Below are positions 7,756 to 8,832 of a DNA stretch of 41,886 nt, piece by piece (positions within the stretch are counted from its first letter, which is position 1; every line of letters begins with the position of its first letter). The stretch spans positions 1 through 41,886 of the IMG/VR virus record IMGVR_UViG_2529292907_000015. The stretch is one strand, 5' to 3'. The notes under the pieces were generated by a model. It saw only the letters and a program-made list of their open reading frames with translations. It ran no database searches and was not told the DNA's origin. The translations under genes and the position numbers were made by a program. The DNA comes from a virus (lineage: Duplodnaviria; Heunggongvirae; Uroviricota; Caudoviricetes).

Positions 7756-8832
7756 GTGAGTATGGCTAACGCCTGGCTCAGATTATGGCATGACATGCCA
7801 AATGACCCTAAGTGGCGAACAATTGCCAGGGTGTCAGGGCAGCCAATTGCAACAGTGATGGCAGTATATATCCACCTCCTGGTGAGCGCGTCACGAAATG
7901 TCACGCGAGGTCACATTGATGTCACGACAGAAGATTTGGCAAGTGCGCTCGACGTGACAGAAGAGGTAATTGATTCAATTTTGCAGACGATGCAGGGGCG
8001 GGTACTTGATGGTGATTTAATCACTGGATGGGAAAAACGCCAGGTGCTGAAAGAGGACAACGGCAATATTTCGCAAACCGCAAAATCTCCGGCAGAGCGC
8101 AAGAGGGCGCAGCGAGAGAGGGAAAGAAAGCGGGAACAAAATGGCGATTGTCACGGCGAGTCACGAAATGTCACGCACATGTCACGACGAGTCACGACAG
8201 ATAAAGATACAGATAAAGATACAGATCAAGAAGATCAAAACACTATGGTCCATGGCGTAAAAAACGCCACGAACCAGGCAGGGGATGTTCAGACCGTCAA
8301 TCTCGGTCAGCCAGCAGGCACGACACCGGAAGCCGATTCAGCGTATGCGCTGAAAGCCGATTCGGGCGCTGTGCAGCAGGTGATGACCGCAAGGCAGGAG
8401 CAATCACACCAACTTCAGCAGCCTGAAGCCGATTCCGCCATTCAGCGGGAAGCCGATCGGGTAGTCCCGGAAAACACCGGTCAGTCTGTGGGACGAGTGG
8501 ATTATCCGGATGTGTTCGAACAGGTCTGGCGGGAGTACCCGTTGCGTGCCGGAGCAAACCCGAAGAAATCCGCTTTCAGTGCCTGGAAGGCCAGATTACG
8601 CGAGGGGGTGCCACCAGAGGCCATGCTGGATGGCGTGAGGCGTTACGCAAGATACCTGGCGGCTACCGGGAAAGCGGGAACGGAATTTGTTCAGCGAGCG
8701 ACGACGTTTTTTGGACCGGACCGGAATTTTGAGAACCCCTGGTTTCTCCCGGTAAGCGGCACGAACAACCAGCGTTGTGTGAATCATATTACTGAACCGG
8801 ATAACGAAATTCCGCCGGGCTTCAGGGGGTAA
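7756..8832 (+). CDS. putative replication initiation protein (replisome organiser, O-like position) containing the origin iterons
   Basis: 358-aa ORF with a GAGGTGAG SD. N-terminal WLRLWHDMPNDPKW segment typical of prophage replication proteins. Coding sequence carries two clusters of GTCACG direct repeats and an AT-rich repeat, as lambda O carries ori. Confidence 0.6.
   Translation: MSMANAWLRLWHDMPNDPKWRTIARVSGQPIATVMAVYIHLLVSASRNVTRGHIDVTTEDLASALDVTEEVIDSILQTMQGRVLDGDLITGWEKRQVLKEDNGNISQTAKSPAERKRAQRERERKREQNGDCHGESRNVTHMSRRVTTDKDTDKDTDQEDQNTMVHGVKNATNQAGDVQTVNLGQPAGTTPEADSAYALKADSGAVQQVMTARQEQSHQLQQPEADSAIQREADRVVPENTGQSVGRVDYPDVFEQVWREYPLRAGANPKKSAFSAWKARLREGVPPEAMLDGVRRYARYLAATGKAGTEFVQRATTFFGPDRNFENPWFLPVSGTNNQRCVNHITEPDNEIPPGFRG
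7890..7926. repeat. iteron cluster 1 (four GTCAC(G) repeats at about 10-bp phasing)
   Basis: GTCACG at 7890, 7900, 7921 and GTCAC at 7910, inside the replication gene. Confidence 0.6.
8150..8230. repeat. iteron cluster 2 plus AT-rich tandem repeat (candidate ori)
   Basis: Five GTCACG direct repeats at 8150, 8160, 8170, 8181, 8191, followed by a GATAAAGATACA x2 A/T-rich segment. Confidence 0.65.

What the first reader, a model, noticed from the sequence alone, without database searches (positions are those of the whole stretch)
7890..8230. Origin-like iteron arrays inside the replication gene
Two clusters of GTCACG direct repeats (four at 7890-7926; five at 8150-8196 with 10-11 bp phasing) and an adjacent A/T-rich GATAAAGATACA tandem lie within the O-like ORF, mirroring lambda ori inside gene O. 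The iteron sequence defines replicon specificity. No P or DnaC-like helicase loader gene is evident downstream, so the replication module may depend on host loading functions.
Basis: partly seen in the sequence, partly recalled or inferred. Interest (0 to 1): 0.5.

Follow-up and report, generated by a model that had tools for sequence, protein, structure and literature searches.

The report
Phage replication origin inside initiator gene
The repeats are real and most likely form the replication origin of a lambda-like prophage, embedded in the gene of the protein that should bind them. This two-array layout is conserved across many phages but I found no description of it in the papers searched.

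Summary
Nine GTCACG/GTCACA cores on the + strand, plus one inverted copy, lie within 307 bp. No dinucleotide shuffle gave more than 4 per 310 bp. They form two arrays (7890-7926 and 8150-8196) phased at 10-11 bp. The second array abuts an A/T- and purine-rich tandem tract (8197-8245), the least stable DNA in the operon.

The cores fall in all three codon phases. They are invariant at synonymous sites across five genera while the spacers vary. Homologous genes in Pseudomonas, Aeromonas, Serratia and Ralstonia phages and in uncultured phages keep both arrays at the same positions. Some lineages carry a different core (GTAACG, GCAACG, GAACG), and it is always the same in both arrays of a gene.

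Best reading: a lambda-type origin embedded in a non-O, non-YdaU "replisome organizer" gene. No function was tested experimentally.

The window has no helicase-loader gene. The initiator ends in the same tail as host DnaT (IPPGFRG). Among the 15 initiator genes with a known downstream partner, that tail occurs only where a DnaC-type loader gene follows or where no loader follows. This fits use of host DnaC.

It is a new variant of a known kind.

The parts
7762..8832 (+). Initiator gene (356 aa), named 'phage replisome organizer' by PGAP and PHROG 3729 'replication initiation protein'. It contains the whole cis element.
   Evidence: ORF and homologue starts. PHROG 3729 E=1e-255. No Pfam family at significance; Phage_rep_org_N E=0.12. 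The N half is present in 2256 of 5426 complete E. coli genomes.
7762..8142 (+). Coding region of the N-terminal domain (residues 1-127). The model is a helical, winged-helix-like fold followed by a basic helix (110-126). This is the presumed iteron-binding domain.
   Evidence: AF2 model, mean pLDDT 81.8. Foldseek gives no significant hit, but the top matches are mostly winged-helix regulators. Homologues occur in phages of distant hosts.
7890..7926 (+). Iteron array 1: four cores (GTCACG at 7890, 7900 and 7921; GTCACA at 7910) spaced 10/10/11 bp. It encodes a low-confidence loop (about residues 43-55) of the N domain.
   Evidence: 0 of 8 core columns at codon third positions vary, against 36 of 42 upstream third positions, across 5 genera (P=5.6e-6). 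The E. coli 042 and O157 variants have six iterons here.
7953..7958 (-). Single inverted copy of the core, 27 bp to the right of array 1.
   Evidence: An inverted copy at the same gene position (nt 192 or 213; two copies in some genes) is present in relatives.
8150..8196 (+). Iteron array 2: five GTCACG cores spaced 10/10/11/10 bp. It encodes the start of the disordered linker (about residues 130-145).
   Evidence: The cores are invariant while the spacers vary in 85%-identical and more distant genes. The cores occupy all three codon phases.
8197..8245 (.). A/T- and purine-rich tandem tract ((ACAGATAAAGAT)x2.9, then GATCAAGAAGATCAAAAC). It is the candidate DNA-unwinding element and contains two GATC sites (8224, 8233). 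It encodes TDKDTDKDTDQEDQNT.
   Evidence: Least stable 40-mer of the operon, 71% purine on the + strand. 15 of 16 codons end in A/T against 43% elsewhere in the gene. An (A/C)AGATA(A/C)AGA or CAGAGACAGAGA tract follows array 2 in almost all relatives. Copy number is polymorphic, 1-5.
8246..8276 (.). Imperfect inverted repeat (13-nt arms, 5-nt loop) directly to the right of the tract. Whether it belongs to the element is uncertain.
   Evidence: (I13). It is not conserved in relatives with other C-terminal halves.
8494..8757 (+). Coding region of the folded C-terminal domain (residues 245-332), the presumed partner- or loader-recruiting domain.
   Evidence: AF2 pLDDT about 90. PHROG 18526 and 1701. 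It is exchanged as a module: homology with the 042/O157 type stops just after the tract.
8758..8829 (+). C-terminal tail (residues 333-356, ...RCVNHITEPDNEIPPGFRG), shared with host DnaT.
   Evidence: NCBIfam DnaT model positions 156-179. PDB DnaT chains 6aep, 2ru8 and 9zbt_D. Also present in Rac YdaU. Its distribution follows DnaC-type loaders.
8873..9295 (+). Downstream gene (DUF977; annotated LygF or 'Ren-like') in the position where relatives carry a loader or helicase gene.
   Evidence: Pfam DUF977 E=3e-29. PHROG 142. In 66 of 75 IMG/VR contigs with the same N domain this gene directly follows the initiator gene.
6287..7690 (.). Immunity and early-right context: CI-like repressor (6287-7060, - strand), P22-type Cro (7053-7268, + strand) and YdaT/CII-like gene (7265-7690, + strand). 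Rightward early transcription would read through the origin.
   Evidence: Pfam and PHROG 163. The same gene order is seen in relatives.

Best explanation
The region 7890-8245 is the origin of vegetative replication of this lambdoid prophage, embedded in the gene of its own initiator.

Shown:
- There are two arrays of a 6-7-bp core, (T/G)GTCACG(A/C), phased at 10-11 bp so that all sites face one side of the helix.
- The arrays lie about 229 bp apart. The second runs directly into the least stable, purine-rich tract of the operon.
- The arrays are under DNA-level constraint that is independent of the reading frame.
- They are conserved in position in homologous genes across distant hosts.
- The core changes in concert in both arrays between lineages.

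Inferred:
- The N-terminal domain of the encoded protein binds the cores cooperatively and forms an O-some-like nucleoprotein complex, possibly bridging the two arrays.
- With negative supercoiling and rightward early transcription through the site, the adjacent tract (8197-8245) melts.
- The C-terminal domain then brings in the replicative helicase.
- This phage has no loader gene, so it uses host DnaB-DnaC. The likely contact is the C-terminal IPPGFRG tail that it shares with host DnaT.
For: 1. Clustering is far beyond chance.
2. The repeat is a DNA signal, not a peptide repeat. The cores occupy codon phases 0, 1 and 2. 0 of 8 core columns at third codon positions vary, against 36 of 42 upstream, across E. 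coli, Serratia, Pseudomonas, Aeromonas and a metagenomic gene (P=5.6e-6). 2 of 24 core columns vary against 8 of 13 spacer columns (P=0.001).
3. The architecture is conserved. Both arrays and the tract sit at the same positions in 042/O157-type genes, Serratia, Pseudomonas phage P7869, Aeromonas pAEv1818, Ralstonia phage Firinga and an uncultured phage. Of 66 non-identical IMG/VR homologues, 48 have phased runs of one hexamer in both zones and 38 have 6 or more phased copies. Of 127 flanking control segments, 107 have none and the maximum is 4.
4. The core changes in concert. GTCACG, GTAACG, GCAACG and CGAACG/GAACGC types each appear in both arrays of a gene. The two large classes separate cleanly by N-domain features outside the iteron-coded loop: residues 101-108 present or absent, and Q/E versus W at residue 117.
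5. The layout resembles lambda. Array 2 and the tract encode the start of a disordered linker between folded N and C domains. Lambda ori consists of iterons plus an AT-rich tract in the middle of gene O (PMC7466680).
6. The tract is the least stable 40-mer of the operon and is AT-enriched at synonymous positions.
7. The parts are modular. The N domain with the origin is joined to different C-terminal halves, and these go with different downstream partners: P-like, DnaC-like, DnaB-like, primase-helicase or none.
8. The loader-less arrangement occurs in deposited complete phage genomes. Tritos has no annotated helicase, loader or primase.
9. The same initiator occurs with a DnaC-like gene in 8 contigs and without one in 66.
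10. The phage DnaC-like protein is a full-length homologue of E. coli DnaC (E=2e-78).
11. The tail is present in 6 of 6 initiators followed by a DnaC-like gene and in 4 of 4 loader-less ones. It is absent in 5 of 5 followed by P-like, DnaB-like or primase-helicase genes.
Against: - There is no experimental evidence for binding, unwinding or replication.
- The element overlaps coding sequence, so positional conservation and the constant 229-bp gap are partly forced by the protein.
- The tract also encodes a conserved acidic D/E-K/T linker and is a slippage-prone tandem repeat. Its AT bias is therefore not independent evidence.
- The winged-helix assignment of the N domain is not statistically supported (Foldseek E>0.2; Pfam E=0.06-0.12).
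- Co-segregation of iteron class with N-domain class is confounded by phylogeny.
- The tail-loader correlation rests on 15 genes.
- What the tail binds in DnaT is not stated in the papers read.
- A loader-less module could also be replication-defective in some prophages.
Confidence: 0.8

Rival explanations
1. The arrays are operator-like sites for autoregulation or transcription control. The initiator or another regulator would bind inside the gene to throttle early-right transcription, and replication would start elsewhere.
For: The arrays lie inside the transcribed initiator gene downstream of cro and the cII-like gene. Iteron-binding initiators of plasmids commonly autoregulate (general knowledge).
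Against: The invariant pairing of array 2 with the least stable, purine-rich tract is the hallmark of an origin, not of an operator. No other iteron cluster exists in the window. No alternative replication gene is present. Autoregulation and origin function are not mutually exclusive.
Confidence: 0.07
2. The sites are bound by a different protein, such as a host factor, the YdaT/CII-like protein or the DUF977 protein, rather than by the protein that encodes them.
For: No binding data exist. A YdaT-like gene sits upstream in most enterobacterial, Aeromonas and metagenomic relatives.
Against: The only feature that accompanies the arrays in every lineage is the N domain itself. Ralstonia phage Firinga, the uncultured phage L016 and the Pseudomonas phages have no DUF977 gene annotated in the flanks examined, and Firinga and L016 show no annotated YdaT/CII-like gene either. 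The core class co-segregates with the N-domain class. A host factor would not explain lineage-specific cores within one host range.
Confidence: 0.06
3. The repeats are a by-product of protein coding or replication slippage, that is, a repeated peptide or low-complexity linker with no cis function.
For: The tract is a polymorphic tandem repeat that encodes an acidic linker. Array 2 lies in a disordered region.
Against: The cores use all three reading frames. The cores are invariant while the intervening, also coding, spacers vary. The same hexamer recurs in a second array 260 bp away inside a folded domain, and the two change in concert.
Confidence: 0.02
4. The conserved sequences mainly serve as homology patches for modular recombination between phages, marking a module boundary.
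For: Homology between the window type and the 042/O157 type ends just after the tract. The N-domain-plus-origin module is joined to several different C-terminal halves.
Against: A boundary function does not explain helical phasing, two arrays, frame-independent core conservation or lineage-specific cores. Recombination at the tract is better seen as a consequence of a conserved origin and linker.
Confidence: 0.03

Closest known systems
Bacteriophage lambda ori within gene O (lambda O/P system; Stx phages 933W and P27)
   Same: The origin is embedded in the initiator gene downstream of pR-cro-cII. An array of initiator-binding repeats abuts an AT-rich, strand-asymmetric tract. The array and tract encode a flexible linker between an N-terminal ori-binding half and a C-terminal partner-binding half. 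The N-half-plus-ori module and the C-half module recombine independently. Iteron number varies between relatives (PMC7466680).
   Different: The protein has no detectable sequence relationship to lambda O (no Pfam Phage_rep_O hit). The iterons are 6-7-bp direct cores at 10-11-bp phase, not 19-bp imperfect palindromes. There are two arrays 229 bp apart, and the first lies inside the coding region of the DNA-binding domain. There is no P gene in this window.
SPP1 G38P 'replisome organizer' with oriL (with G39P loader and G40P helicase)
   Same: The protein shares the annotation class (PGAP 'phage replisome organizer'). It gives a weak, sub-threshold match to Pfam Phage_rep_org_N over residues 5-122. 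The logic is the same: an origin-binding organizer hands over to a loader or helicase encoded next to it (PMC5615212). From memory, not tested here: oriL lies within gene 38 and has repeated boxes next to an AT-rich segment.
   Different: The Pfam score is 12.8 bits against a 23.3-bit cut-off, so membership is not established. The host phylum is different. This window has no phage loader or helicase.
Rac prophage YdaU (DUF1376) with YdaV (DnaC-like), E. coli K-12
   Same: The operon position is the same (ydaS-ydaT-rep). The protein has a mid-gene KDTDKD-type tract and the same C-terminal tail, RQVNTVSLPDSAIPPGFRG. Four direct repeats (AAnCAGATGTTCAA) lie just upstream of that tract.
   Different: The N-terminal domain is unrelated (DUF1376; BLASTP aligns only the tail and linker). 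The repeat sequence and spacing differ. A DnaC-like gene (ydaV) follows.
E. coli DnaT (primosomal protein I)
   Same: The last 24 residues match DnaT residues 156-179, including the terminal IPPGFRG. The 042/O157-type relatives instead carry the DnaT ssDNA-binding domain, PF17948.
   Different: The window protein has no DnaT N-terminal domain and no PF17948 domain. The 'Primosomal protein I' label in some phage records describes only the tail.
Satellite phage P4 ori/crr (recalled from memory, not tested)
   Same: Short direct-repeat initiator sites are organised in two separate clusters that are both used for replication.
   Different: The P4 clusters are kilobases apart. The initiator (alpha) is a primase-helicase, and the sites are not inside a DNA-binding-domain coding region.

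Membership tests
Lambda-type origin embedded in the initiator gene | A cluster of direct repeats (iterons) inside the initiator gene | tested here: met
   4 + 5 phased cores at 7890-7926 and 8150-8196.
Lambda-type origin embedded in the initiator gene | An AT-rich, easily melted tract directly adjoining the iterons | tested here: met
   8197-8245 is the least stable 40-mer of the operon and ranks in the top 0.6% of the window. A similar tract follows array 2 in relatives.
Lambda-type origin embedded in the initiator gene | The origin encodes the inter-domain linker of the initiator | tested here: met
   AF2 predicts residues 129-244 as disordered. Array 2 and the tract encode residues 130-161. 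Array 1 departs from this: it encodes a loop inside the N domain.
Lambda-type origin embedded in the initiator gene | Iterons are about 19-bp imperfect inverted repeats (PMC7466680) | tested here: not met
   The cores are 6-7 bp, direct, and spaced 10-11 bp apart.
Lambda-type origin embedded in the initiator gene | The initiator belongs to the lambda O protein family (Pfam Phage_rep_O) | tested here: not met
   No such Pfam hit even at E<=10.
Lambda-type origin embedded in the initiator gene | A P-type loader gene lies immediately downstream | tested here: not met
   DUF977 follows instead. No P-like or DnaC-like sequence occurs in the window. The feature is met in the 042/O157/Serratia relatives.
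Lambda-type origin embedded in the initiator gene | The initiator binds the iterons and the fragment supports replication | not testable with these tools
   This needs EMSA or footprinting and a replication assay.
YdaU / DUF1376 replication proteins | A DUF1376 domain is present | tested here: not met
   No Pfam hit. BLASTP against K-12 YdaU aligns only the tail and linker.
Phage replisome organizer (Pfam PF09681 Phage_rep_org_N) | The Pfam model scores above the gathering score | tested here: not met
   12.8 bits against a 23.3-bit cut-off, E=0.12, but the match spans residues 5-122 of the protein and positions 1-118 of the model. PGAP and PHROG still use the name.
Phage replisome organizer (Pfam PF09681 Phage_rep_org_N) | A winged-helix DNA-binding fold in the N domain | tested here: inconclusive
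   The AF2 N-domain model (pLDDT 81.8) has helices plus a beta wing. Foldseek's best matches are mostly winged-helix regulators, but all have E>0.2.
DnaT (primosomal protein I) | The DnaT ssDNA-binding three-helix domain (PF17948) is present | tested here: not met
   Absent from the window protein. Present in the 042-type relative (E=1e-17).
DnaT (primosomal protein I) | A C-terminal tail ending in ...SEPDxxIPPGFRG | tested here: met
   NCBIfam model positions 156-179. PDB chains 6aep, 2ru8 and 9zbt_D.
Iteron plasmids (Rep/iteron origins with DnaA boxes) | A DnaA box beside the iterons | tested here: not met
   No TTWTNCACA match in 7600-8500. The best sites have 2 mismatches to the consensus.

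The most novel reading that the evidence does not exclude
The IPPGFRG tail shared by host DnaT, Rac YdaU and this family of phage initiators may be the motif that engages the DnaC-type loader-helicase complex. Loader-less phages such as this one would then plug their origin complex directly into host DnaB-DnaC by mimicking DnaT. If true, these phage proteins give a simple, genetically tractable handle on how DnaT recruits DnaB/DnaC, which the 2026 preprimosome structure paper states is unknown (PMC13377028). The evidence does not exclude an alternative in which the tail instead docks on PriA or PriB and recruits the restart primosome.
Probability: 0.3. Interest if true: 0.7.

Novelty: new variant of a known kind. 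Interest (0 to 1): 0.5.

Why it matters
The gene is one of the commonest prophage replication genes in E. coli: its N half is found in 42% of complete genomes, including O157:H7 and CFT073. Public records label it only 'replisome organizer', 'replication protein O', 'primosomal protein I' or 'hypothetical protein'. I found no origin annotated in them.

Defining the origin gives three practical things: the cis site and likely specificity determinant for replicon typing, the basis of incompatibility among co-resident prophages, and material for building phage-derived vectors.

The natural series of core variants (GTCACG, GTAACG, GCAACG, GAACG) paired with N-domain variants is a ready-made system for studying how initiator-origin specificity evolves when the binding sites lie inside the gene for the binding domain.

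The tail-loader correlation suggests how phages without a loader obtain the host helicase. It also bears on the open question of how DnaT hands over to DnaB-DnaC.

Tried and rejected
- **Peptide-repeat explanation.** Rejected, because the cores fall in all three codon phases and are conserved at synonymous sites.
- **YdaU or lambda O membership.** Rejected by Pfam and by BLASTP against K-12 YdaU.
- **Fold assignment.** Foldseek against the PDB gave no significant match with either the full-length model or the N-domain model. Only a winged-helix-like trend can be stated.
- **Hidden loader.** tblastn with P-like and DnaC-like proteins from relatives found nothing in the window.
- **DnaA boxes and IHF sites.** No consensus site around the arrays.
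- **Internal promoters and terminators.** One weak antisense promoter-like match made of iteron sequence, fewer than in shuffles. One terminator-like hairpin on the - strand at 8276-8246, not conserved in relatives.
- **Rfam.** No RNA family overlaps the region.
- **Literature.** Searches for the iteron sequence, for replisome-organizer iterons, for lambdoid iterons, for DnaT in prophages and for oriJ found no description of this origin. The library lacks most subscription journals, so an older description cannot be excluded.
- **First IMG/VR scan.** It returned only identical copies. I repeated it with divergent queries.
- **Plasmid collection.** Two 50.9-kb circular P. aeruginosa records carry the module, and for the one examined PLSDB lists no replicon type. 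They look like phage genomes, so this is only weak support for autonomous replication.
- **Second protein search.** A search with the N domain alone mostly returned fragments.
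Full report
**1.

- The sequence shows GTCACG at 7890, 7900 and 7921 and GTCACA at 7910, with spacing 10/10/11.
- It shows GTCACG at 8150, 8160, 8170, 8181 and 8191, with spacing 10/10/11/10.
- One inverted copy lies at 7953-7958.
- These are 9 of the 24 exact GTCACG matches in the 41.9-kb window.
- No 310-bp stretch of 300 dinucleotide-preserving shuffles held more than 4. Against the background rate, the Poisson P is about 7e-15.
- Tandem Repeats Finder reports (ACAGATAAAGAT)x2.9 at 8197-8231.
- The stretch 8201-8240 is 75% A+T. It is by far the least stable 40-mer between 7262 and 8832 (-43.4 against -48.8 kcal/mol for the next) and lies in the top 0.6% of the window. 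The + strand is 71% purine.

**2. Context**

- The window is a lambdoid prophage. An E. coli prophage about 94% identical over three quarters of the first 25 kb lies between yccA and a tRNA-Ser gene next to hyaA.
- The local gene order is:
  - CI-like repressor (6287-7060, - strand)
  - P22-type Cro (7053-7268)
  - YdaT/CII-like gene (7265-7690)
  - the 356-aa ORF 7762-8832
  - a DUF977 gene (8873-9295)
- The 356-aa protein matches PHROG 3729 'replication initiation protein' end to end, and PGAP calls it 'phage replisome organizer'.
- It has no significant Pfam domain. It is not DUF1376 (YdaU) and not Phage_rep_O. Phage_rep_org_N scores only 12.8 bits, E=0.12.
- The N half of the gene occurs in 2256 of 5426 complete E. 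coli genomes.
- It is about 98% identical in seven deposited phage genomes, including Tritos, Evi and vB_EcoS-640R1.

**3. The repeats are a DNA-level signal**

- The nine cores occupy codon phases 0, 1 and 2, so no repeated peptide produces them.
- I compared genes from E. coli, Serratia, Pseudomonas phage P7869, Aeromonas phage pAEv1818 and a metagenomic contig.
  - 2 of 24 core columns of array 1 vary, against 8 of 13 spacer columns (P=0.001).
  - None of the 8 core columns at third codon positions varies, against 36 of 42 third positions in the upstream 128 nt (P=5.6e-6).
- In the ~85%-identical E. coli 042, O157 and CEC01302 genes, the cores of array 2 are kept while nearly every spacer differs. 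Array 1 has two extra iterons in these genes.

**4. The architecture is conserved and the core co-varies**

- In every relative examined, array 1 starts at about gene nt 129 and array 2 at about nt 389-410.
- Array 2 is directly followed by an (A/C)AGATA(A/C)AGA... or CAGAGACAGAGA... tract.
- The core is GTCACG in enterobacterial, Pseudomonas and Aeromonas phages. It is GTAACG in two metagenomic relatives, GCAACG in Ralstonia phage Firinga and CGAACG in an uncultured phage. It is always the same in both arrays of a gene.
- I then ran an unbiased scan of 66 non-identical IMG/VR homologues.
  - 48 had phased runs of one hexamer in both zones, and 38 had 6 or more phased copies.
  - Of 127 control segments from the same contigs, 107 had none and the maximum was 4.
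- The two large classes (GTCACG, n=27; GAACG, n=19) are cleanly separated by N-domain features outside the iteron-coded loop. These are an 8-residue segment (101-108) and residue 117 of the basic helix. This separation is confounded by phylogeny.

**5. Relation to the protein**

- AlphaFold2 models give:
  - a helical N domain (1-90) with a beta wing;
  - a low-confidence loop at residues 47-52, within the stretch (about residues 43-55) that array 1 encodes;
  - a basic helix (110-126);
  - a disordered stretch (129-244) whose first 30 residues are encoded by array 2 and the tract;
  - a confident C-terminal domain (245-332);
  - a 24-residue tail.
- Array 2 and the tract therefore sit as lambda ori does, in the linker between an origin-binding half and a partner-binding half. 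Lambda ori is described as iterons plus an AT-rich tract in the middle of gene O (PMC7466680).
- Foldseek found no significant structural neighbour. The best matches are mostly winged-helix regulators.
- In the tract, 15 of 16 codons end in A/T against 43% elsewhere in the gene (P=4.5e-5). Because the tract is a tandem duplication and also encodes a conserved acidic linker, this is supportive rather than independent evidence.
- The tandem-unit copy number varies from 1 to 5 among 75 contigs that carry the same N domain.

**6. Modularity and the missing loader**

- Homology between the window type and the 042/O157 type ends just after the tract.
- The 042/O157 type continues into a C half that contains the DnaT ssDNA-binding domain (PF17948) and is followed by a lambda-P-like gene.
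- Other relatives are followed by a DnaC-like gene (Shigella phage 75/02, Aeromonas pAEv1818, L008, L010, L011), by a primase-helicase (Pseudomonas P7869) or by a DnaB-like helicase (Firinga).
- The window has no relative of these loader proteins anywhere. The complete genome of phage Tritos has no annotated helicase, loader or primase.
- Of 75 IMG/VR contigs encoding the identical N domain, 66 have DUF977 directly downstream and 8 have a DnaC-like gene there.
- The phage DnaC-like protein is a full-length homologue of E. coli DnaC (E=2e-78).

**7. The DnaT-like tail**

- The last 24 residues (...RCVNHITEPDNEIPPGFRG) match the C terminus of DnaT (NCBIfam positions 156-179; PDB 6aep, 2ru8 and 9zbt_D).
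- The same tail ends Rac YdaU, which is followed by the DnaC-like YdaV.
- Among the 15 of 16 tabulated initiator genes whose downstream partner is known:
  - the tail is present in 6 of 6 followed by a DnaC-like gene;
  - it is present in 4 of 4 with no loader;
  - it is absent in 5 of 5 followed by P-like, DnaB-like or primase-helicase genes.
- I infer that the tail works with DnaC-type loading and that this phage uses host DnaC-DnaB.
- How DnaT recruits DnaB/DnaC is stated to be unknown (PMC13377028). The papers I read do not assign a partner to the tail.

**8. Mechanism proposed**

- *Shown:* the anatomy, the DNA-level constraint, the conservation and the concerted core change.
- *Inferred:*
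  - The N domain binds the phased cores along one face of the helix. Mean spacing is about 10.3 bp.
  - The two arrays, about 22 helical turns apart, may be brought together in one nucleoprotein complex.
  - The adjoining tract melts under supercoiling and pR-driven transcription.
  - The C domain and tail recruit host DnaB-DnaC.

**9. Rivals**

Four alternatives are discussed under rival explanations: operator-only function, binding by another protein, a coding or slippage by-product, and a recombination boundary. None accounts for the combination of phasing, frame independence, two concerted arrays and the invariant low-stability neighbour.

**10. Novelty**

- The kind of element, an iteron-plus-AT-rich origin embedded in a lambdoid initiator gene, is classical.
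- This version differs in five ways:
  - short direct hexamer cores at helical phase;
  - a bipartite layout with one array inside the coding region of the DNA-binding domain;
  - a non-O initiator;
  - free combination with four kinds of helicase-delivery partner, or none;
  - a DnaT-like tail.
- Five literature searches found no description of it. The searchable library lacks most subscription-journal papers, so a prior description cannot be excluded.
- My verdict is a new variant of a known kind. Interest is moderate (0.5). Confidence in the origin reading is 0.8. Confidence is lower, about 0.3-0.5, for the host-DnaC and tail mechanism.

Noticed in passing
window 12534-12670 (ORFs 12114-12680 and 12505-13095): A perfect pentanucleotide repeat, (GCCCA)x27.4, splits an FkbM-family methyltransferase gene into two ORFs in different frames. 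The N part matches an MTase domain and the C part matches Pfam Methyltransf_21 positions 97-172. A 5-nt unit changes the frame with each copy gained or lost, so this is a candidate phase-variable gene, currently out of frame. It lies in the most AT-rich island of the window.
   Followed up: partly
window 8758-8829; L257 4120-4977 (Rac ydaU); L002, L003, L008, L010, L011, L015: The DnaT-like C-terminal tail (IP[PDE]GFR[GS]; PPGFN in the Aeromonas phage) occurs in unrelated initiator N-domain families: this family, Rac YdaU, HannyBb and 75/02. Its presence tracks a DnaC-type loader or no loader, and never a P-like or helicase partner.
   Followed up: partly
L257 4472-4563 (E. coli K-12 Rac, ydaU): Rac ydaU contains four direct repeats (AAnCAGATGTTCAA; spacing 33, 33, 12) just upstream of a KDTDKD-coding tract. 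This is the same iterons-then-tract logic with a different N domain and may mark the Rac origin.
   Followed up: no
L003 2442-2599 (Escherichia phage HannyBb O-like gene): Five 23-bp iterons (consensus about CATCRGGTCAAAATG...) are followed by a TACAGAGAATAMAA tandem, in a third initiator type that shares only the C-terminal tail. No loader gene follows.
   Followed up: partly
L004-L006 (E. coli 042, O157 FORC_044, CEC01302), about 2501-3995: A chimeric relative has the same N domain and origin (six iterons in array 1) joined just after the tract to a C half with the DnaT ssDNA-binding domain (PF17948). A short lambda-P-like gene and a DUF1627 gene follow. In FORC_044 the initiator gene is annotated as frameshifted.
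   Followed up: partly
proteins P0155, P0173, P0174, P0186, P0213, P0215, P0225; Pseudomonas phage hits H70-H75: Several N-domain homologues of about 180-190 aa carry HNH endonuclease Pfam domains (PF01844, PF14279). In most of the Pseudomonas phage records two 'hypothetical proteins' lie under the match. This may reflect an HNH insertion or a split of the initiator gene.
   Followed up: no
window 8246-8276: An imperfect 13-nt inverted repeat with a T-run on the - strand lies immediately to the right of the AT tract and was scored as terminator-like on the - strand. Lambda ori has a palindrome in the equivalent place (from memory). It is not conserved in relatives with other C halves.
   Followed up: partly
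window 4435-4486 (-), 11665-11836 (+), 16306-16615 (+): Rfam finds DicF sRNA, a sok antitoxin RNA (hok/sok-type locus), and a cluster of four tRNA genes. ARAGORN calls them Met(cat), Lys, Thr and Gly, and the first is annotated tRNA-Ile in a related prophage. The cluster lies downstream of the Q antiterminator region.
   Followed up: no
L258 (CP124671.1) and CP137943.1: Two 50.9-kb circular P. aeruginosa 'plasmid' records carry the homologous initiator and origin next to a DnaB-like helicase gene. For CP124671.1, the one examined, PLSDB lists no replicon type. They look like phage genomes assembled as episomes.
   Followed up: partly
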